Shown here: positions 13,961-25,305 of the stretch, piece by piece | Numbering within the stretch: position 1 is the first letter of the stretch | Layout: each line of letters begins with the position of its first letter | Assembly (NCBI GenBank): GCA_035287005.1 | Contig: DATECH010000126.1 | Location: forward strand, 1-28,011 | Reading direction: 5' to 3' | Source of the DNA: Actinomycetota bacterium | GTDB lineage: Bacteria; Actinomycetota; UBA4738; HRBIN12 | DNA: 28,011 nucleotides | Made by a program: the position numbers and the translations under genes | Notes under the pieces: model-generated | The model's database searches: none | Told to the model about the DNA's origin: nothing | What the model saw: the letters and a program-made list of their open reading frames with translations, nothing else

Positions 13961-14827
13961 ATGTCCGGATTCGATAACGGTGGCGCGGCTCCCCCGCCAC
14001 CACCACCACCGAGCGCCGGCGGCGGCGGCGCGATCCCGCAACGCGGCTTAGGCGACATCCTGTCCACCGCGTTCGAGCTCTACAAGGCGAACGCCGCAAA
14101 GCTGATCCAGATCGTGGCGATCGTGGTGGTCCCACTCACGTTCGTGCTGGCGCTGCTCACGAAGGTGGCGCTGAAGCAGAACTGTACGGTCGAGGACATC
14201 CAGACGTTCGAGGACCTCCAGAACTTCTCGAACAACTGCACCGTCGGAGTCGGGCGCTCCCTGCTGCTGAGCGCGATCGCCGGGTTCATCGCGATCGCGA
14301 TCCAGCAACTGGTGCAGGGTGCCGTCACGCGGGGCGGAGCGGCCGCGACGCTCGGACGCGCGGTCGACGTGAAGGCCAGCTACCGCTACGCGCTTTCCCG
14401 GCTGTGGGGGCTGATCGGTCTGTCCCTGTTGATCGCGCTCGTCGTCGGGGTTGGATTCATCCTGCTGATCATCCCCGGCGTCATCTTCCTGGTGTTCCTC
14501 GCGGTCGCCGTACCGGCGTTCATCATCGAGCGCACCGGGGCGACGGCGTCCATGTCACGATCGTGGAAACTCGTCAGCGGTCAGTGGTGGCACACCCTGG
14601 GCGTTATCGTGGTCGCCGGGATCATCGCCGGTGTCGTGAACGGCATCCTCACGGCGATCGGCGGCAACAACTTCTTCCTGTACTGGGTCTTCTCCACGAT
14701 CGGCCAGATCATCACGGCGCCGTTCGTCGCGCTGGTGGGGATCGTGTTGTACGTGGACCTGCGTGCGCGGCACGAGGGTCTGACGGCAGACACGCTCGGC
14801 GCGGAGTTGGACGCGGCGCAGGCGTAG
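13961..14827 (+). CDS. Integral membrane protein with Pro/Gly-rich N-terminus (GDPD-membrane-anchor/DUF975-like family)
   Basis: SD AAGAGGAGGG and -10 TAGTAT at 13921-13926; RGLGDILSTAFELY, several TM helices, SMSRSWKLV..WW and ending LYVDLRARHEG. Confidence 0.8.
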   Translation: MSGFDNGGAAPPPPPPPSAGGGGAIPQRGLGDILSTAFELYKANAAKLIQIVAIVVVPLTFVLALLTKVALKQNCTVEDIQTFEDLQNFSNNCTVGVGRSLLLSAIAGFIAIAIQQLVQGAVTRGGAAATLGRAVDVKASYRYALSRLWGLIGLSLLIALVVGVGFILLIIPGVIFLVFLAVAVPAFIIERTGATASMSRSWKLVSGQWWHTLGVIVVAGIIAGVVNGILTAIGGNNFFLYWVFSTIGQIITAPFVALVGIVLYVDLRARHEGLTADTLGAELDAAQA

Positions 14828-14849
14828 ATCACACGGCAGTCGTCGCGAT

Positions 14850-14877
14850 CGGGGGCGCTCCTTCGGGGGCGCCCCCG
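14850..14877 (+). terminator. GC-rich 12-bp hairpin with cUUCGg tetraloop (terminator-like, no U-tract)
   Basis: CGGGGGCGCTCC-TTCG-GGGGCGCCCCCG (one G.U pair), 22 nt after the stop at 14827. Confidence 0.65.
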
Positions 14878-14943
14878 TCCCGTTCCCCGACGATCACCTC
14901 CGTGCGTGCGGCGGAACCTCCCGGCGTGTGGGAATCTCCTGGG

Positions 14944-16191
14944 ATGGCGACCATCGAGACCGTCTTCGACCCGACCACCGTCCGCGAGCGGTTCCCAGCC
15001 CTGGCTCGCAAGGCGCCGGACGGTCGGCCCTACGTGTGGGCGGACGCGCCCGGGGGCTCCCAGATGGTCGACACCGCGATCGCGGCGGTCACCGACCGCA
15101 TGCGGGCGGGCGCGTCCAACACGCACGGCGCGTTTCCGCTGAGCGTCGAGATCGACGCGCTGATCGACGACGCGCGGCGGGCCGGCGCCGACTTCCTCGG
15201 CTGCGATCCGGGCGAGGTCGTCTTCGGCCAGAACTCCACGTCGCTGTTGCTGCATCTGTCGCGCGCGATCGGGCGCACCTGGGGACCGGGCGACGAGATC
15301 GTCGTCACCCGATTGGACCACGACGCGAACGTGCGGCCCTGGGTGCTGGCCGCGCGCGACGCCGGCGCCACGGTCCGCTGGGTCGACGTGCGCGAGGACG
15401 ACGTGACCCTGAACCTCGACACCTTCGACGCGGCACTCTCCGATCGCACCAGGCTCGTCGCGTTCACCCTGGCCTCCAACGCCGTCGGCACGATGCCGCC
15501 GGCGGCGGATCTGACGGCTCGCGCCAAGCAGGTGGGTGCGTTGGTCGCGGTCGACGGCGTCCACGTGTCCCAGCATCACGCGATCGACCTGCGCGGGATC
15601 GGCGCCGACATCGTCGCCACGTCTCCCTACAAGTACTTCGGACCGCATCAGGGGATGCTCGGCGTTCGCGCAGAAGTGCTGGCGGCGCTCGAGCCCTACA
15701 AGCTCCGCGCCGCCCCCGATGACGATCCCGGCCGCTGGGAGACCGGCACTCAGAACCACGAGGCGCTCGCGGGAACGATCGCGGCGATCGACTACATCGC
15801 CGGCATCGGCGGCGGCCCCGATCGGCGCTCGGGGATCCTCGCGGGGTTCGCGGCCTTCGACGCGCACGAGCGCACGCTAGCCGGCCGCTTCCTCGACGGC
15901 GTGGCCCGCATCGGCGGCGTGCGCGTCTACGGCATCACCGACACGGCCCGCATCGGTGACCGCACGCCGACGTTCGCCCTGCGGGTGGGCTCGCAGCATC
16001 CGCTCGACACCTGCGCGGCCCTTGCCGAGCGCGGCGTCTTCACCTGGGACGGGCACTACTACGCGATCGAGGTGTTCGACCGGTTGGGGTTGCTGGATAC
16101 CGGCGGCGCGGTGCGTATCGGCTTCTGTCACTACCACACGATCGACGAGGTCGATCGCGTCCTGGAGGCGCTCACGCAGCTCGCGGGCTGA
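14944..16191 (+). CDS. Cysteine desulfurase-like class V PLP enzyme (TIGR01976/VC1184-type)
   Basis: DAPGGSQ, FGQNSTSL, LDHDANVRPW, ASNAVGT, VDGVH, PLP lysine SPYKYFGPH, ETGTQNHE. The SufS-type GxHCA loop reads WDGHYYA (no Cys). Confidence 0.87.
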   Translation: MATIETVFDPTTVRERFPALARKAPDGRPYVWADAPGGSQMVDTAIAAVTDRMRAGASNTHGAFPLSVEIDALIDDARRAGADFLGCDPGEVVFGQNSTSLLLHLSRAIGRTWGPGDEIVVTRLDHDANVRPWVLAARDAGATVRWVDVREDDVTLNLDTFDAALSDRTRLVAFTLASNAVGTMPPAADLTARAKQVGALVAVDGVHVSQHHAIDLRGIGADIVATSPYKYFGPHQGMLGVRAEVLAALEPYKLRAAPDDDPGRWETGTQNHEALAGTIAAIDYIAGIGGGPDRRSGILAGFAAFDAHERTLAGRFLDGVARIGGVRVYGITDTARIGDRTPTFALRVGSQHPLDTCAALAERGVFTWDGHYYAIEVFDRLGLLDTGGAVRIGFCHYHTIDEVDRVLEALTQLAG

Positions 16192-16244
16192 CCGAGTGCC
16201 GAGCCGGTACCATCAATGCATCCCCTGCACCGAAGGGTCCACAC

Positions 16245-17405
16245 ATGCGCATCCTCATCCTGGGCGGCGACGGGTACCTGGGCTGGCCCACCGCGATGCG
16301 GTTCTCGAACCGCGGTCACGAGGTCCACGTCGTCGACAACTACCTGCGCCGCCGTGCACACACGGAAGCCGGCACCGATTCCCTGACGCCGATCGCACCC
16401 GACCTGCCGACCCGTGTCGCGACATGGCACGAGGTCACCGGGCGCACGATCGGCGTGACCGAGGGCGACCTGTGCGACTGGCCGACCGTGGAGGCGACGT
16501 TCCGCGACTTCCGGCCCGAGGCGGTCGTGCACTACGGCGAGATGCCGAGCGCGCCGTACTCGATGAAGGATCGACACCACGCCGTGTTCACACAGACCAA
16601 CAACGTCGTGGGGACCCTGAACGTGTTGTGGGCGATGCGCGACCTCGCGCCCGACTGCCACTTGGTGAAGCTCGGCACGATGGGCGAATACGGCACGCCC
16701 AACATCGACATCGAAGAAGGCTACATACAGATCGTGCATAACGGCCGCACGGACTACCTGCCGTTCCCGAAACTGCCGGGTTCGATGTATCACCTGTCGA
16801 AGGTGCACGACAGCAACAACATCCACTTCGCCTCGCGCGTGTGGGGCCTGCGCGCGACCGACCTCAACCAGGGGGTTGTGTACGGCATCCAGACCGAAGA
16901 GACGCGACTGGACGACCGGCTCGCCACGCGCTTCGACTACGACGACGTGTTCGGCACGGCGCTGAACCGGTTCTGCCTCCAGGCGGTGATCGGTCATCCG
17001 CTGACGGTGTACGGCAAGGGCGGGCAGACACGCGGCTACCTCAATATCATCGACACGCTTCGCTGCATCGAGCTGGCCGTCGAGCATTCGGCCGACGTTG
17101 GTGAGTACCGGGTGTTCAACCAGTTCACCGAGTCGTTCTCGGTTCTGGACCTCGCCGAGCTCGTGCAGAAGGCCGGTGCCGAGTACGGGATCGACGTCAC
17201 GATCGACGAGGTGCTGAACCCTCGTGTGGAGCTCGAGGAGCACTACTACAACCCGACCCACACGAAGCTTCTGGACCTCGGCCTGCGACCGCACCTGCTG
17301 TCGACCGAGCTCGTCGAGTCGATGTTCTCGGTGATCGAACGGTTCCGCGATCGCGTGGTCGCCGACCACATCCTGCCTCGCGACCGCTGGCGCCCGGCGC
17401 AGTGA
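16245..17405 (+). CDS. sqdB: UDP-sulfoquinovose synthase-like NAD-dependent epimerase/dehydratase (SqdB/SQD1/Agl3 family)
   Basis: GGDGYLGWPTA, DNYLRR, SAPYSM, VKLGTMGEYGTPNIDIEEG, YHLSKVHDS, RATDLNQGVVYG, RFDYD..FGTALNRF, RVELEEHYYN. SD GAAGGG; -10 TACCAT about 30 nt upstream. Confidence 0.88.
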   Translation: MRILILGGDGYLGWPTAMRFSNRGHEVHVVDNYLRRRAHTEAGTDSLTPIAPDLPTRVATWHEVTGRTIGVTEGDLCDWPTVEATFRDFRPEAVVHYGEMPSAPYSMKDRHHAVFTQTNNVVGTLNVLWAMRDLAPDCHLVKLGTMGEYGTPNIDIEEGYIQIVHNGRTDYLPFPKLPGSMYHLSKVHDSNNIHFASRVWGLRATDLNQGVVYGIQTEETRLDDRLATRFDYDDVFGTALNRFCLQAVIGHPLTVYGKGGQTRGYLNIIDTLRCIELAVEHSADVGEYRVFNQFTESFSVLDLAELVQKAGAEYGIDVTIDEVLNPRVELEEHYYNPTHTKLLDLGLRPHLLSTELVESMFSVIERFRDRVVADHILPRDRWRPAQ

Positions 17406-17412
17406 GCGCACC

Positions 17413-18459
17413 GTGACGACCGTCCGCATCCTGGGCGTCGTCGCCGCCGTCGCCTTCCTGTTCCTGGCGGCACGTGCCTACGATCGACGGCACATCAGCC
17501 GGCGCAGCCTGCTGATCGTCGGCGGCCTGGCCGTCCTCATGGTCGTGCTCGCCCTGCGGCCCTCGGTCTACGGGCCGGTGTTCGGGTGGTTCGACATCGC
17601 TCCCGGCAACGAACGGCGTGCCCTGTTCGCGGCGATCGTCGCGATCATCACGCTGTTCTTCCTCGTCTTGCGCGTGCAGTCCGAGGGCGACACGAACGAA
17701 CGAACGATGCGACTACTGGTCGAGGCGCTGGGCCGCGAGCGTTTCGACTGGGAGCGTGCCGCCACCCTGCCGGAAGGTCGGCGGCTGATCGTCGTCATCC
17801 CCGCGTTCAACGAGGCGGGAAACGTCGGGCCGGTCGTTCGCTCGCTGCCCGAGCATCTCGGCGGCATGCGGGTGATCCCCCTGGTGGTCAGCGACGGGAG
17901 CACCGACGGCACCGCCGAAGAGGCTAGACGCGCGGACGCGCTCGTTACCGAGCTGCCGATCAACCGCGGAGGCGGGTTGGCGTTACGCGTCGGCTACGAG
18001 ATCGCCCTGCAGCTCGGCGCGGAGATCGTCGTGACGATGGATGCCGACGGTCAGCACCTCGCCGGCGAACTCCCCACGATGATCGCGCCGCTGCTCGCCG
18101 GCGAGGCGGACTACGTGAACGGCTCGCGGTTGCTCGGCGACTTCGAGCGCGACAGTCTGATCCGTCACATCGGCGTCCACGTATTCTCCCGCATCGTGTC
18201 GATCCTCACCGGACGGCGCATCACGGACCCGTCCAGTGGCTACCGTGCCGCGCGCGCAGACCTCCTGCATCGCTTGGTATTGGAGCAAGACCAGTTCTGG
18301 ACGAGCGAGATCCTGATCGAGGCGCTGCGTCACCGCGCGAAGGTGGTCGAGGTGCCGGTGACGATCGTGGCGCGGGCCAGCGGCACCACCAAGAAGCCGC
18401 GATCCCTTCGCTACGGTTGGAACTTCTCCAAGGTGATCATCCAGACCTGGCTTCGATGA
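17413..18459 (+). CDS. Fusion: N-terminal DUF2304-like membrane domain plus GT2 polyprenol-phosphate glycosyltransferase (DPM1/PpgS-like)
   Basis: About 110 aa with three hydrophobic segments ending in LLVEALGRE, then IVVIPAFNE, VSDGSTDGT, NRGGGLAL, TMDADGQH, VNGSR, ITDPSSGYRA, VEVPV. Confidence 0.82.
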   Translation: MTTVRILGVVAAVAFLFLAARAYDRRHISRRSLLIVGGLAVLMVVLALRPSVYGPVFGWFDIAPGNERRALFAAIVAIITLFFLVLRVQSEGDTNERTMRLLVEALGRERFDWERAATLPEGRRLIVVIPAFNEAGNVGPVVRSLPEHLGGMRVIPLVVSDGSTDGTAEEARRADALVTELPINRGGGLALRVGYEIALQLGAEIVVTMDADGQHLAGELPTMIAPLLAGEADYVNGSRLLGDFERDSLIRHIGVHVFSRIVSILTGRRITDPSSGYRAARADLLHRLVLEQDQFWTSEILIEALRHRAKVVEVPVTIVARASGTTKKPRSLRYGWNFSKVIIQTWLR

Positions 18460-18477
18460 GCGCGGCCGACGGCGCGT

Positions 18478-19212
18478 TCAGATCCGGTCGAGCCGACGTT
18501 GCAGCTCCGTCGCGAGCGACCGCTCGCGACGGAACTTCTTCCAGTCGCTGCTCTTGGTGCTCAGGGTGATGTCCGTCACGATCTGGAACACCCCGAGCGC
18601 GAGCAGCGTCCACGCGGCCCACGCCGGCGCGTTCGTCGCGGGCCACAGCGCGAGCCCCACGAACGGCGCAAGCTTGGTGGCGATCGCGCCGCTCGCGTGG
18701 AACCAGGCCCGCATCGACGGTTCCGCACGCAGGTAGGTGGCGTAGTCGGTCTTGATCCCAGGCCGAGGCGGCGGCGGGCCTCCGAGAAAGGCGTCCGTGT
18801 AGCGGATCCCTGCCAACCAGCCGACGAACGCGTGCGCGGGCAGGTGCCACCCGACCGACCAGGCGGCGCCGGCGCCGAGCAAGGCGAGGCCTGCCCAGGC
18901 TCCGCTCCATGTGCCCGCCAGCACGACCCCGACGACCCCCACCACCGACAGCAGCAGCATCGCGAGGACCCCGACCCAAGGTCGAACACGGGTTCGGACC
19001 CGTGCGCGGAAAGCCTCGGTGTCGATGCGCCCTGCCTGGTCCGCGTAGCGTCCGATCGCCACGCGGTCCCGCTTGATCACAGCGACCGCTCGCCAGAACC
19101 CCAGCCCGCGCAGATCCGTGTCGCCGCCGTCAACGGCCGCCTCGATGCGCTCCAGCTCCCGGCCGACGTCCCGGATCGAGGTTTGCTCCGGAGTTGGTCG
19201 TAACGGCTCCAC
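18478..19212 (-). CDS. Hypothetical membrane protein with M50 peptidase-like motifs (HxxxH without Glu)
   Basis: GTG at 19212 after SD GAGGAGG. TM helices, WHLPAHAFVGWLAGIRYT..FLG, RAWFHASGAIATK. Confidence 0.75.
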   Translation of the reverse strand: MEPLRPTPEQTSIRDVGRELERIEAAVDGGDTDLRGLGFWRAVAVIKRDRVAIGRYADQAGRIDTEAFRARVRTRVRPWVGVLAMLLLSVVGVVGVVLAGTWSGAWAGLALLGAGAAWSVGWHLPAHAFVGWLAGIRYTDAFLGGPPPPRPGIKTDYATYLRAEPSMRAWFHASGAIATKLAPFVGLALWPATNAPAWAAWTLLALGVFQIVTDITLSTKSSDWKKFRRERSLATELQRRLDRI

Positions 19213-19291
19213 GGTTCGGGCCCTCCTCGGGGCTAGGATTCCTCTCGACGCGCTCCCTCCCTGGTCCGAGCGCTTCCCCGACGGGAGGTCG

Positions 19292-21169
<1,878 letters not shown>

Positions 21170-22892: not shown

Positions 22893-24041
22893 TCAGTACA
22901 GGAACATCGGCTTGCCGTCCACGTGCCGGATCTTCGGGCGGTAGGCCTCGGCGTCGTAGAGGGACTGCGCGTCCACTCGCTTGACCCCCTGACCCACCAC
23001 CGTCAGTGGCACGTTCGCGTAGTTCCCGTTGCGAAGCGCAACGAGCCTCCCGAACGCGCCCTCGACGATCAGATCGGTGGCCATGACCGCGTAGTTGATC
23101 GCCACCATCAGATCGAGCGAATCGGGGGTCCCGGATCGCATCAGATAGCCGATCTGCTGGTAGATCATGTCCTGGCCCGTCCGCTGCTTGAGCAGCTCGC
23201 TCGTGACCTGGCCGATGCCACCCAGCTTCCGGTGGCCGTAGGCATCCTCCTCGCCGTCGAGGACCATCTCGCCGTCGACGAGCGAGGCACCCTCGCTGAT
23301 CGTCATCATCGCGTAGTTGCTCGGGTTGGCCCGCTTGTCGGCCATCAGTAGCTCGGCCAGCCGGTCGATATCGAACGGCACTTCGCTGATGATGGCCCGG
23401 TCCACACCCGACAGGTACGCCGACACCAGCGATGTCTCCCCGCTGTAGCGACCGAACACCTCCACCACCGCCAACCGCTCGTGGGAGCCGGCGCTCGTGC
23501 GTAGTTGATGCACGAAATTCACCGTGCGAGTGATGGCGGTGGAGAATCCGATGCAGTAGTCGGTCCCGTGCACGTCGTTGTCCATCGTCTTGGGGATGGC
23601 CACCACCGGCACGCCCTCCTCGTGCAGCCGCAGGGCGAACGACAGCGTGTCGTCGCCTCCGATCGGGATGAGGGCGCCGATCCCCAGCCGCTCGATCACG
23701 CGCAGCACGTGCCCGGTGTGGTCTCGCGGGCCGTCGTCGGTCCGGCCCTCACTGAGGAACGGCGGTTCATCGGCGGCCTTCACCTTGGCCGGGTTCGTCC
23801 GAGACGTGTGGAGGAACGTCCCACCCGAACGGTCGATCGTGCGCACCGCGGTGGGATCCAACACCTCGGTGCACACGTGCACCGACAACGGGTTCTCGGG
23901 GTCGATCTCCAGCAAGCCTCCCCAGCCGCGCCTGATCCCCACGACCTGGTGCCCCTCGGAGGCCGCGCGCCCGACGACCGCCTTGATGCAGGCGTTCAAG
24001 CCGGGAACGTCGCCGCCGCCCGTCAAGATCCCGATCTTCAT
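22893..24041 (-). CDS. pfp: Phosphofructokinase, predicted PPi-dependent
   Basis: [22 protein letters not shown], donor-specificity motifs GGDDT and PKTMDND (Asp104/Lys124 type). Probably leaderless: TAGGCT(24054-24049)-N7-ATG. Confidence 0.85.
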
Positions 24042-24078
24042 GCCGCGAAGCCTACGACGCTCCAGGCGAGCCGTACGC

Positions 24079-25095
24079 TCACTCGCACAGCACTTCGGGG
24101 ATCCGCCACAGCTCGGGGGGCAGCGTCTTGGTTCCCTGCACCTCGGCGATCGGCGTCGGATCGATCTTCGCGCCGTGGATCCCGATCACGGAGCCCCATC
24201 GCCGGGCGAGCGCCTCGTCGACGGCGGTGCGACCGAGCCGTGTCGCGAGCACGCGATCGAACGCGAGGGGTGAGCCACCGCGCTGGACATGGCCGAGCAC
24301 CGTCACGCGCGTCTCGAAGCCCGTACGACGGCCGATCTCCTCCGCCACGACGGCGCCGACGCCTCCCAGGCGCGGGTACCCGTTCTCGTCCAGCGCGTAG
24401 TCGGGGATCGGCATCGACCCGGGCACCGGAAGCGCCCCTTCCGAGACGACCACGATCGAGAACGGCCTGTGCAGCGCGTGCACCTCGCGGATCCGCCGGC
24501 ACGCGAGATCGACGTCGAACGGATGCTCGGGCACCACGATCACGTCCGCGCCCGTCGCCACCCCCGCCGTGTACCCGATCCACCCCGCGTGACGGCCCAT
24601 CACCTCGCACACCATGACCCGGTTGTGGCTCTCGGCGGTGCTGTACAGGCGATCGATCAGGTCCGTCGCGATCTGCGCGGCCGTTTGGAAACCGATGCTC
24701 GCATCCGTGCCCCGGATGTCGTTGTCGATCGTCTTGGGGATGCCGATCACGGGCACATCCAACCTGGCGGCCTCGCCGATCGTCCCCTCTCCGCCGATCA
24801 CGATGAAGCCCTCGAGCCGGTGCACCTCGAGGGCCTCGCGCACCTTGGCAACGCCCCCGTCGACGCGATGTGGCTGCGTGCCGCTGGTCCCCAGGATCGT
24901 GCCGCCCCGCGGCAGGATCCCCCGGACATCATCGCTGGTGAGCTCGTCGGCGTGCCCCTCGAGAACGCCGCGCCATCCGTCGCGGAACCCGACCAGCGTG
25001 CACCCTCGCTCGCCGTTGCCGTGGCGCACCACCGACCGGATGGCGGCGTTCAGACCGGGGCAGTCGCCCCCGCCGGTCAGGACTCCCAGGCGCAT
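24079..25095 (-). CDS. pfkA: 6-phosphofructokinase, group III, predicted ATP-dependent
   Basis: [26 protein letters not shown] and PKTIDND (Gly104/Lys124 type), [17 protein letters not shown]. Probably leaderless: TAGGGT(25108-25103)-N7-ATG. Confidence 0.9.
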
Positions 25096-25155
25096 GGCAG
25101 GCACCCTACCGGACGGGTCCGCCTGCTCCCGGGGGACGCCGGGTAGGATGACTTC

Positions 25156-25305
25156 ATGCTCGCCCGGTTGCTCCCCGAACACATCGGGATCCTCGAGGGG
25201 ATCTTCCTCGCCGGCCTGCTCGGGCTCACGGCGATCGTCGGGATCTTCGCGCTCTACGTGGTCGGCCAGCAGTTTCGCAACCCCGGCCGTCCGCAGCGCC
25301 GCTAG
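25156..25305 (+). CDS. Small 49-aa single-pass membrane protein (unannotated)
   Basis: TAGGAT(25144-25149)-N6-ATG leaderless arrangement. Translation: MLARLLPEHIGILEGIFLAGLLGLTAIVGIFALYVVGQQFRNPGRPQRR*. Strong GC3 codon bias; a TM helix followed by an Arg-rich tail; fills the gap between pfkA and arcC. Confidence 0.8.
   Translation: MLARLLPEHIGILEGIFLAGLLGLTAIVGIFALYVVGQQFRNPGRPQRR

What the first reader, a model, noticed from the sequence alone, without database searches (positions are those of the whole stretch)
16245..18459. sqdB paired with a polyprenol-phosphate glycosyltransferase instead of sqdX/sqdD: candidate lipid-carrier sulfoquinovosylation pathway
Seen in sequence: an SqdB-family gene followed 7 nt later by a DUF2304-GT2 fusion, with no GT4 sqdX or sqdC/D in the window. 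Established: bacterial SqdB normally feeds the sulfolipid SQDG; archaeal Agl3 feeds sulfoquinovose into S-layer N-glycans; mycobacterial PpgS (GT2) with its DUF2304 partner makes polyprenyl-phospho-GalNAc for cell-wall decoration. Inference: this operon could make polyprenyl-phospho-sulfoquinovose (or a related sugar) to decorate an extracytoplasmic glycan or protein, which would be a new bacterial use of sulfoquinovose. Caveat: the SQD1 motif EQRSAPYS reads EMPSAPYS here, and that Arg has been proposed (from memory) to bind sulfite, so the product may be a different nucleotide sugar.
Basis: partly seen in the sequence, partly recalled or inferred. Interest (0 to 1): 0.75.

Follow-up and report, generated by a model that had tools for sequence, protein, structure and literature searches.

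The report
Sulfoquinovose-type sugar on a lipid carrier
An uncultured soil actinobacterium keeps a close relative of the plant sulfolipid-sugar enzyme directly in front of a membrane enzyme of the kind that loads sugars onto a lipid carrier, which predicts a cell-surface use of a sulfoquinovose-like sugar that has not been described, although the sugar's identity is still unproven.

Summary
16245-17405 encodes a 386-aa protein 65% identical to Arabidopsis SQD1. Seven nt later, 17413-18459 encodes a DUF2304 (GacJ-like, 3 TM helices) fused to a Dpm1/ArnC/PpgS-type GT2. The pairing is not chance. It is tandem in all 29 genus loci and 19 of 20 order-level loci. A P0002 homologue lies within the flanks of 64 of 74 related public loci, in tandem, divergent or split arrangements. 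In 19 Solirubrobacterales loci two PMT_2-type GT-C transferases lie between the two genes. No SqdX-like GT4 or SqdD-like GT8 was found in four near-complete genomes of the genus. The lipid-carrier reading is therefore well supported.

The sugar is less certain. Arg101 is replaced by Pro/Ala/Ser in the whole GT2-linked clade (103/103, against R in 11/11 canonical sequences). Agl3 mutated at this Arg is inactive. About a quarter of good relatives lack APS/PAPS reductase. On the other hand, position 101 aligns with GalE Lys84, an NAD-pyrophosphate ligand, and Pro is the commonest residue in the wider family. One Pro-type gene overlaps a true cysH, and one Arg-type copy also sits beside a DUF2304-GT2.

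This scan has already reported the same module on at least 21 other genomes. The Arg101 analysis is the new part here.

The parts
16245..17405 (+). SqdB/SQD1-family extended SDR (386 aa), Pro101 variant; predicted UDP-sulfoquinovose-type nucleotide-sugar synthase
   Evidence: 65% identity to SQD1 over its full length, 532 bits. NF041015 scores 484 bits against a 575-bit cut-off. Found in 58 of 61 genomes of the order.
16536..16556 (+). Motif GEMPSAP (residues 98-104); SQD1 has GEQRSAP. Met100 and Pro101 replace Gln100 and Arg101
   Evidence: Position 101 is P/A/S in 103 of 103 sequences of the GT2-linked clade and R in 11 of 11 canonical sequences. The position aligns with E. coli GalE Lys84.
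16677..16685 (+). Thr145-Met146-Gly147, the [ST]MG signature of UDP-sulfoquinovose synthases
   Evidence: The signature [ST]MGxnYx3K is given for SQD1/Agl3 in PMC8987622.
16788..16802 (+). Tyr182-His183-Leu-Ser-Lys186: catalytic YxxxK with the SQD1-specific His183
   Evidence: His183 and Gln209 are conserved in both Arg-type and Pro-type representatives.
17406..17412 (.). 7-nt spacer between the two genes, with no promoter-like or terminator-like site
17413..18459 (+). Fusion protein (348 aa): DUF2304/GacJ-like membrane module plus a polyprenyl-phosphate-type GT2
   Evidence: Pfam. The best solved relatives are dolichyl-P-mannose synthase 5mlz and ArnC. The best NCBIfam hits are AglJ, PpgS and Dol-P-hexose transferase, all far below their cut-offs. 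An orthologue is present in 57 of 61 genomes of the order.
17422..17730 (+). DUF2304 domain (residues 4-106) with three TM helices
   Evidence: GacJ and Rv3632 belong to this family and stimulate their GT2 partners (bioRxiv 10.1101/180810).
18040..18048 (+). DAD (DxD) metal and nucleotide-sugar motif inside MDADGQH
   Evidence: Aligned with MDADLQH of P. furiosus DPMS 5mlz.
18226..18240 (+). DPSSG motif, aligned with DPVSG of DPMS
   Evidence: That this loop contacts the acceptor phosphate is from memory of the DPMS structure and was not tested here.
14944..16191 (+). Upstream neighbour: TIGR01976 cysteine-desulfurase-like PLP enzyme (415 aa); probably not part of the module
   Evidence: 440.7 bits against a 352-bit cut-off. 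It is adjacent only in the genus and near kin. A true orthologue was not found in family f8.

Best explanation
The two genes form a conserved two-gene operon that starts a three-step, lipid-carrier glycosylation route. Step 1 is inferred from homology. The SQD1-like enzyme oxidises UDP-glucose at C4 with bound NAD+, eliminates water across C5-C6, adds a nucleophile at C6 and reduces C4 again. The nucleophile is most likely sulfite, which would give UDP-sulfoquinovose. Step 2 is inferred from family and synteny. The GT2 domain transfers that sugar to a polyprenyl monophosphate, helped by its fused GacJ-like DUF2304 membrane module. Step 3 is inferred from relatives. After flipping, a GT-C transferase moves the sugar onto an envelope glycan or protein outside the membrane. 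That transferase is encoded next to the pair in Solirubrobacterales and elsewhere in this genus. My odds are about 0.8 for the lipid-carrier route, and about 0.6 that the sugar is sulfoquinovose given that route.
For: The enzyme shows full-length 65% identity to SQD1. It keeps the TMG...YHLSK signature, His183 and Gln209. Seventy positions are invariant between this clade and canonical SqdB.

The GT2 has DAD and DPxSG motifs and is closest to DPMS, ArnC, AglJ and PpgS. DUF2304 proteins GacJ and Rv3632 activate such synthases, and natural fusions are known.

Linkage is strong:
- 29 of 29 genus loci are adjacent.
- 19 of 20 order-level loci are tandem.
- 64 of 74 non-Arg public loci hold a GT2 homologue in the flank: 34 downstream on the same strand (29 within 300 nt) and 30 upstream and divergent, 17 of them more than 1.5 kb away.
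- 19 loci have two PMT_2 GT-C genes between the GT2 and sqdB.

Both genes were missed in the same three genomes (G007, G041, G045). One further genome (G026, 73% complete) lacks only the GT2.

No SqdX-like GT4 above 37% identity and no GT8 were found in G030, G033, G016 and G035.

Four results favour sulfite:
- A Pro-type relative (P0130) overlaps a true cysH, scoring 158.9 bits on NF002537 against a 154-bit cut-off.
- An Arg-type copy in G042 sits beside a DUF2304-GT2.
- The non-Arg clade nests inside Arg-type sequences.
- Position 101 aligns with GalE Lys84, an NAD-pyrophosphate ligand that is Ile in an active epimerase.
Against: Arg101 is replaced in the whole clade. Agl3 with this Arg changed to Ala is inactive (PMC4388408). 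The protein scores below NCBIfam's cut-off for UDP-sulfoquinovose synthase.

PF01507 (CysH/CysD) was not found in 18 of 61 relatives. These include 6 of 23 high-quality genomes and all five genomes of family f8, which nevertheless keep the pair. No cysteine dioxygenase was found in five of them. A sulfite source is therefore not evident there.

No GT-C or flippase gene lies next to the pair in this window or its order. No member of the Pro-type clade has been assayed. All the linkage stems from few evolutionary events, so the counts are not independent.
Confidence: 0.5

Rival explanations
1. The route is the same lipid-carrier route, but the Pro101 enzyme does not make UDP-sulfoquinovose. It either stops at another C6-modified UDP-hexose, such as UDP-glucose-5,6-ene or a 6-deoxy or 4-keto-6-deoxy sugar, or it adds a nucleophile other than sulfite. 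The carrier would then bear a different sugar.
For: Position 101 is the only position with zero overlap between the GT2-linked clade and canonical SqdB. Agl3 mutated at this Arg is inactive, and Agl3 without sulfite releases UDP-glucose-5,6-ene. APS/PAPS reductase was not found in family f8 (0 of 5) or in G030, G035 and G002, all of which keep the pair. The protein is below the NF041015 cut-off.
Against: No other active-site signature differs: TMG, YHxxK, His183 and Gln209 are kept. The clade is no more diverged from SQD1 than canonical bacterial SqdB is, at about 65% identity. Pro is the commonest residue at 101 in the wider family, and one Pro-type gene is coupled to cysH. Position 101 corresponds to an NAD ligand in GalE rather than to a C6 pocket residue. 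No reductase or second SDR that a keto or ene intermediate would need lies next to the pair in this clade.
Confidence: 0.25
2. The GT2 is not a polyprenyl-phosphate synthase. It transfers the sugar from the UDP-sugar directly to a final membrane acceptor, making a new sulfoglycolipid or modifying another lipid on the cytoplasmic face. It would thus be a non-homologous replacement for SqdX.
For: No GT-C or flippase is adjacent in the window's order. All NCBIfam equivalogs for polyprenyl-P synthases are missed by wide margins: AglJ 100 of 325 bits and PpgS 86 of 370 bits. No SqdX or SqdD was found in the genus.
Against: The best solved relatives are DPMS and ArnC, with DAD and DPxSG aligned. The fused DUF2304 is known only as a partner of polyprenyl-P-HexNAc synthases. 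In 19 Solirubrobacterales loci, two PMT_2 GT-C genes lie between the orthologous GT2 and sqdB. GT-C enzymes use polyprenyl-P-sugars as donors (established knowledge). GT-C genes exist elsewhere in every genome of the genus that was examined.
Confidence: 0.1
3. The adjacency has no functional meaning. SqdB serves an unlinked pathway, and the GT2 makes an ordinary polyprenyl-P-hexose such as mannose or glucose.
For: The whole region is syntenic across the order (DUF402, membrane protein, PLP enzyme, sqdB, GT2, membrane protein, PknB). Adjacency inside the order alone could therefore be inherited gene order.
Against: Linkage survives rearrangement outside the order, in tandem, divergent and GT-C-separated forms. 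It is seen in Solirubrobacterales, Gaiellales, Acidimicrobiia, Nocardioidaceae and Dehalococcoidia records. Both genes are missed in the same three genomes; a fourth genome (G026) lacks only the GT2. The own genome has two other Dpm1-like GT2 genes, one of them beside its own PMT_2 gene, which could serve ordinary hexoses.
Confidence: 0.05

Closest known systems
GacI / GacJ / GacL (with GacK) of Streptococcus pyogenes: GlcNAc side chain of the group A carbohydrate (bioRxiv 10.1101/180810)
   Same: A GT2 makes a polyprenyl-P-sugar, and a small DUF2304 membrane protein binds and activates it. Fused forms exist in nature. A GT-C enzyme then transfers the sugar outside the membrane. Here DUF2304 is fused to the N-terminus of the GT2, and GT-C genes join the cluster in relatives.
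   Different: The donor there is UDP-GlcNAc; here it is the product of an SQD1-like enzyme. No Wzx-like flippase or GT-C gene is adjacent in this window. The acceptor is unknown.
PpgS (Rv3631) / Rv3632 / GT-C Rv3779 of Mycobacterium tuberculosis: galactosamine on arabinogalactan
   Same: This is an actinobacterial polyprenyl-P-sugar synthase with a DUF2304 partner that stimulates it. NF058614 PpgS is the second-best NCBIfam match of the GT2.
   Different: The score is 86 bits against a 370-bit cut-off, so the GT2 is not a PpgS orthologue. The partner is fused rather than separate, and the sugar-nucleotide gene beside it differs. The role of Rv3779 is from memory and from earlier notes; it was not checked here.
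SQD1/SqdB with SQD2/SqdX (GT4) or SqdD (GT8): sulfoquinovosyl diacylglycerol synthesis
   Same: The first enzyme is a close homologue, at 65% identity with the same catalytic signature.
   Different: The partner is a membrane GT2 of the carrier-loading type. No SqdX-like or SqdD-like gene was found in the genus. Arg101 is Pro. A canonical Arg-type locus (L107, Caldilineaceae) does have an adjacent GT4.
Agl3 of Sulfolobus acidocaldarius: UDP-sulfoquinovose for the S-layer N-glycan (PMC4388408)
   Same: It is a non-lipid, glycoconjugate use of sulfoquinovose, and the enzyme family is the same.
   Different: This is an archaeal pathway. That the sugar is added to the lipid-linked oligosaccharide from the nucleotide sugar, not from a polyprenyl-monophosphate-sulfoquinovose, is established knowledge recalled from memory. 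Agl3 has the Arg, and mutating it abolishes activity.
ArnC / ArnT: undecaprenyl-P-L-Ara4FN synthesis and transfer to lipid A
   Same: ArnC is among the best solved relatives of the GT2 (39 bits, residues 123-327). A dedicated nucleotide-sugar enzyme, a carrier-loading GT2 and a PMT_2-type GT-C form one module.
   Different: The sugar and acceptor differ, it has no DUF2304 module, and the similarity is distant.

Membership tests
UDP-sulfoquinovose synthase (SQD1/SqdB/Agl3, EC 3.13.1.1) | Full-length homology to characterised members | tested here: met
   532 bits and about 65% identity to SQD1 over residues 2-383.
UDP-sulfoquinovose synthase (SQD1/SqdB/Agl3, EC 3.13.1.1) | Score above the curated equivalog cut-off (NF041015, 575 bits) | tested here: not met
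   484.1 bits, aligned end to end.
UDP-sulfoquinovose synthase (SQD1/SqdB/Agl3, EC 3.13.1.1) | Signature [ST]MG...Yx3K with His183 | tested here: met
   T145-M146-G147 and Y182-H183-L-S-K186 are present.
UDP-sulfoquinovose synthase (SQD1/SqdB/Agl3, EC 3.13.1.1) | Arg of the EQRSAP motif (SQD1 Arg101), needed for Agl3 activity | tested here: not met
   Pro101 here. The residue is P/A/S in 103 of 103 clade members and R in 11 of 11 canonical sequences. Agl3 with this Arg changed to Ala is inactive.
UDP-sulfoquinovose synthase (SQD1/SqdB/Agl3, EC 3.13.1.1) | Sulfite-dependent formation of UDP-sulfoquinovose from UDP-glucose | not testable with these tools
   This needs an enzyme assay. The indirect evidence is mixed: cysH is coupled to a Pro-type relative, but PF01507 was not found in 18 of 61 relatives.
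Polyprenyl-phosphate glycosyltransferases of GT2 (DPM1 / GtrB / ArnC / PpgS / GacI type) | GT-A domain with a DxD motif and closest similarity to characterised carrier-loading enzymes | tested here: met
   PF00535 scores 60.6 bits. The DAD and DPSSG motifs align with DPMS 5mlz, and the next hits are ArnC. The top NCBIfam hits are AglJ, PpgS and Dol-P-hexose transferase.
Polyprenyl-phosphate glycosyltransferases of GT2 (DPM1 / GtrB / ArnC / PpgS / GacI type) | Orthology to a named enzyme (an equivalog cut-off reached) | tested here: not met
   AglJ scores 100 of 325 bits, PpgS 86 of 370 and ArnC 32 of 529. The protein is a separate subfamily.
Polyprenyl-phosphate glycosyltransferases of GT2 (DPM1 / GtrB / ArnC / PpgS / GacI type) | Transfer of a sugar to polyprenyl monophosphate | not testable with these tools
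   This needs a membrane assay.
DUF2304 / GacJ / Rv3632 activator module | Pfam PF10066 above its cut-off; a small module of three TM helices joined to, or next to, a GacI/PpgS-type GT2 | tested here: met
   33 bits against a 25.5-bit cut-off, over residues 4-106. The three helices lie at 1-24, 28-54 and 67-92. The module is fused to the GT2.
Three-component extracytoplasmic glycosylation system (GT2 + flippase + GT-C) | A GT-C transferase genetically linked to the carrier-loading GT2 | tested here: inconclusive
   The feature is not met in the window or its order. It is met in 19 Solirubrobacterales loci, which have two PMT_2 genes between the GT2 and sqdB. PMT_2 genes exist elsewhere in the own genome, but their presence pattern does not follow sqdB.
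Three-component extracytoplasmic glycosylation system (GT2 + flippase + GT-C) | A dedicated flippase (GtrA, Wzx or ArnEF type) | not tested
   None was seen among the neighbours scanned with Pfam. No genome-wide search was made.

The most novel reading that the evidence does not exclude
The Pro101 clade is a functionally distinct branch of the SQD1 family. It is near-universal in several soil actinobacterial orders and was found in about a fifth of the sampled Actinomycetota genomes. It would work without sulfite from assimilatory sulfate reduction, using another sulfur donor or another C6 nucleophile. The carrier would then bear a sugar not yet known in biology, which ends up on the cell envelope of abundant non-photosynthetic soil bacteria.
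Probability: 0.12. Interest if true: 0.85.

Novelty: new variant of a known kind. Interest (0 to 1): 0.6.

Why it matters
Sulfoquinovose is treated as a product of phototrophs (the sulfolipid SQDG) and of a few archaea (N-glycans). Global budgets of this abundant organosulfur compound rest on that view. If this module makes polyprenyl-phospho-sulfoquinovose, several things follow:
- Widespread non-photosynthetic soil Actinomycetota would be a second source of the sugar. The SqdB-like gene was found in 82 of 401 evenly drawn genomes of the phylum, in 22 of 22 of the window's family and in 24 of 26 of another family.
- Their envelopes would carry a permanent sulfonate charge.
- A new lipid intermediate would exist.

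The Arg101-to-Pro split also gives a clean and cheap test of what that residue does in SQD1-type enzymes, whose acid/base chemistry is still listed as unknown (PMC8987622).

Tried and rejected
- **SQD1 structure paper.** It is not held under its DOI or its PMC id, so the role of Arg101 in the crystal structure could not be read. A MAFFT alignment of five sequences with E. coli GalE gave a gapped placement that is probably wrong. I relied on the profile alignment instead.
- **Representative library.** At 50% identity the search collapsed canonical and Pro-type sequences into one representative. It was useful only for the wider family.
- **Covariation.** Position 101 showed no consistent partner residue across the wider family at positions 177, 181, 234 or 380.
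- **Upstream PLP enzyme.** I considered TIGR01976 as a sulfite supplier (cysteine sulfinate desulfinase idea) and dropped it. It is adjacent only in the genus and near kin. A true orthologue was not found in family f8, and no cysteine dioxygenase was found.
- **Naming the GT-C partner by presence pattern.** This failed. Two PMT_2-type candidates of the own genome (C101, C91) are also present in the genomes that lack sqdB. The Solirubrobacterales GT-C has no close orthologue in the genus.
- **GT-C against solved structures.** A sequence search gave nothing.
- **A 667-aa ORF downstream in L036.** It proved spurious: no TM helix, no Pfam match, and antisense to thiamine genes.
- **Consensus scans.** There were no promoter-like or terminator-like hits in 14700-19400.
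- **Sequencing runs.** No RNA holder is listed. The stretch is held by soil metagenome DNA runs.
- **Not run.** No structure or complex prediction was run, because the tools return no coordinates from which ligand distances could be read.
Full report
**What is in the window**

The window is contig C126 of a 53%-complete metagenome-assembled genome of 1.27 Mb with about 69% GC. Its relatives are uncultured soil Actinomycetota, and the stretch is held by several soil metagenome runs.

Around the finding lie ordinary chromosomal genes:
- mraZ
- a DnaE2/DinB operon
- a DUF402 gene
- a membrane protein
- a TIGR01976 cysteine-desulfurase-like PLP enzyme (14944-16191)
- the two genes of the finding
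- a membrane protein of no family (18478-19317, minus strand)
- a PASTA kinase
- threonine aldolase
- two phosphofructokinases

16245-17405 encodes 386 aa that match Arabidopsis SQD1 from end to end, at 532 bits and about 65% identity. From residue 53 on, its numbering is that of SQD1. This gives Thr145-Met146-Gly147, Tyr182-His183-x-x-Lys186, and Met100-Pro101 where SQD1 has Gln100-Arg101.

Seven nucleotides after its stop, GTG 17413 opens a 348-aa protein. It has three N-terminal membrane helices that match DUF2304, followed by a GT2 domain.

The closest solved relatives of the GT2 are dolichyl-phosphate-mannose synthase and ArnC, with the DAD...QH and DPxSG motifs aligned. Its best NCBIfam hits are AglJ, PpgS and a dolichyl-phosphate hexose transferase. 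All are far below their cut-offs, so it is a subfamily of its own.

DUF2304 is the family of GacJ and Rv3632. These small membrane proteins bind and stimulate the polyprenyl-P-HexNAc synthases GacI and PpgS, and natural fusions have been noted (bioRxiv 10.1101/180810).

**The pairing is conserved well beyond inherited gene order**

The SqdB-like gene was found in 58 of 61 genomes of the order and the GT2 orthologue in 57 of 61. Both were missed in the same three genomes (G007, G041, G045), and G026 lacks only the GT2.

*Unpublished genomes.* G041 is the only near-complete genome (97%) among those three, and it is flagged as unpublished. That co-absence therefore rests on an unpublished genome. 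G018 is also unpublished and enters the order tallies. G061, G106 and G175 are unpublished and enter the phylum tally.

Within the order:
- The two genes are adjacent in 29 of 29 fetched genus loci.
- They are tandem in 19 of 20 loci from all eight families of the order.

Among 80 named public loci, 74 have a non-Arg residue at position 101. Of these, 64 hold a homologue of the GT2 within the fetched flanks:
- 34 lie downstream on the same strand, 29 of them within 300 nt.
- 30 lie upstream and divergent: 11 within 300 nt, 2 at 300-1500 nt and 17 more than 1.5 kb away.

In 19 Solirubrobacterales loci the space between the divergent genes holds two paralogous PMT_2-family GT-C transferases, each with about eight predicted helices. 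GT-C enzymes take polyprenyl-phosphate sugars as donors; this is established knowledge. That arrangement is the strongest support for the lipid-carrier reading.

Records with the linkage are labelled Solirubrobacterales, Gaiellales, Acidimicrobiia, Nocardioidaceae and Dehalococcoidia.

**No sulfolipid synthase was found**

A GT4 that lies beside a canonical Arg-type sqdB in a Caldilineaceae record was used as an SqdX stand-in. It found only generic GT4 matches, at most 37% identity and 79 bits, in the own genome and four near-complete genomes of the genus. No GT8 (SqdD type) was found there.

**The GT-C partner in this genus is not identified**

The own genome has three PMT_2-like genes elsewhere, one of them beside another Dpm1-like GT2. 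Their presence pattern across the order does not follow sqdB.

**The Arg101 question**

Position 101 is the cleanest difference between the clades. It is Pro, Ala or Ser in 103 of 103 sequences of the GT2-linked clade and Arg in 11 of 11 canonical sequences, with no overlap. Seventy other positions are invariant in both.

In a maximum-likelihood tree the non-Arg sequences form one clade (SH-aLRT 88) nested among Arg-type sequences. The contrast is therefore essentially one evolutionary event, and the counts are not independent.

Three things argue against sulfoquinovose:
- Agl3 with this Arg changed to Ala is inactive. The primers in the paper show that the mutated codon is the Arg of AEQRSAP (PMC4388408).
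- The protein is below the NF041015 cut-off.
- PF01507 (CysH and CysD) was not found in 18 of 61 relatives. These include 6 of 23 high-quality genomes and all five genomes of family f8, which keep the pair. No cysteine dioxygenase was found in five of them.

Six things argue for sulfoquinovose:
- A profile built from 189 family members aligns position 101 with Lys84 of E. coli GalE.
- That lysine hydrogen-bonds the NAD pyrophosphate, and it is Ile in the active Campylobacter epimerase (bioRxiv 10.1101/2020.09.22.308395). It is also listed among the sugar-side residues of GalE (PMC7984243). The Arg may therefore serve cofactor binding rather than sulfite binding.
- In representatives of the wider family (40-50% identity), Pro is the commonest residue at this position, and His183 and Gln209 are kept in both types.
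- One such Pro-type gene (P0130) is followed, with overlapping stop and start, by a true phosphoadenylyl-sulfate reductase, the enzyme that makes sulfite.
- One genome of the order (G042) has an Arg-type copy (AEHRSAPFS) convergent with a DUF2304-GT2 fusion. The link to this kind of GT2 is therefore not restricted to the Pro form.
- The clade is no more diverged from SQD1 than canonical bacterial SqdB is.

I put the odds that the sugar is sulfoquinovose at about 0.6.

**The upstream PLP enzyme**

TIGR01976 is a tempting sulfur supplier. However, it is adjacent only in the genus and near kin, and no true orthologue was found in family f8. I do not count it as part of the module. An earlier follow-up of this scan (e1-1260729) reached the same view on other DNA.

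**Comparison with what is known**

The module works like GacI-GacJ-GacL and PpgS-Rv3632, with an SQD1-type sugar-nucleotide enzyme in front.

I found no paper describing a polyprenyl-phosphate-linked sulfoquinovose, or this gene pairing, in the held library. Recent reviews still describe only SqdB-SqdX and archaeal N-glycans.

Within this scan the same module has been reported on at least 21 other genomes, with several follow-ups reaching the same reading. Those notes are not independent evidence, and none dealt with Arg101.

**Spread**

An SqdB-like gene (E at most 1e-100) was found in 82 of 401 evenly drawn genomes of the phylum. It was found in 22 of 22 genomes of the window's family, 24 of 26 of family f9 and 14 of 31 of family f19.

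**Verdict**

This is a real, conserved operon. It is a new variant of the three-component extracytoplasmic glycosylation systems, with a probable but unproven sulfonated sugar. The lipid-carrier step is well supported. The identity of the sugar and of the acceptor are open.

Noticed in passing
window 14944-16191 (+): A TIGR01976 'cysteine desulfurase-like protein' (440.7 bits, cut-off 352) ends 53 nt before sqdB. It keeps the PLP lysine context (SPYKYFGP) and has a Cys in RIGFCHYH. It is adjacent to sqdB only in the genus and near kin.
   Followed up: partly
L100:4572-7584, L111:6001-10952, L082:6001-10566, L079:2279-4448: A subclade (records labelled Nocardioidaceae, Acidimicrobiia, Dehalococcoidia) inserts a GalE-like SDR of about 310-320 aa between the SqdB-like gene and the GT2. 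In L111 a 672-aa protein with a weak DUF6541 match follows. The carried sugar may be an epimer there.
   Followed up: partly
L120:1-3537: On a metagenome contig, a GT4-like gene that appears to contain an intein is followed by a 46-aa ORF, a Pro-type SqdB-like gene (P0130) and an overlapping true cysH. This looks like a self-contained sulfo-sugar cassette with its own sulfite supply.
   Followed up: partly
L141 and L142 (genome G042): One genome of the order has two SqdB-like copies. One has Ala at position 101 and no GT2 in the flank. The other is an Arg-type copy (AEHRSAPFS) convergent with a divergent DUF2304-GT2 (41% identity to P0002). This is possibly a replacement by transfer.
   Followed up: partly
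L056:4090-8289, L057, L067:7743-9647: Some Pro-type genes without the DUF2304-GT2 sit beside a 636-aa membrane GT2 of the processive type plus a polysaccharide deacetylase, or beside a Wzy_C/TPR protein. These are other envelope-glycan contexts.
   Followed up: no
L105 and L110 (records labelled delta proteobacterium): The Arg-type SqdB genes nearest to the non-Arg clade are flanked on both sides by soluble GT2 genes, not by a GT4. This suggests glycan rather than sulfolipid use even in Arg-type enzymes.
   Followed up: no
G030:C1:1700612-1709598; G033:C3:1559915-1568118; G016:C37:6951-15769: Two paralogous PMT_2-type GT-C genes (about 40% identical) lie roughly 7 kb apart in genomes of the genus, far from sqdB. 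They are candidates for the missing transferase, but they are also present in genomes without sqdB.
   Followed up: partly
window 18478-19317 (-): A 279-aa protein with no Pfam or NCBIfam match and at least one hydrophobic stretch is conserved between the GT2 and the PASTA kinase across the order. It is often separated from the GT2 by about 3 kb of thiamine genes, so it is more likely tied to the kinase than to the glycosylation genes.
   Followed up: no
window 22893-25182 (-): There are two adjacent phosphofructokinase genes (382 and 367 aa).
   Followed up: no
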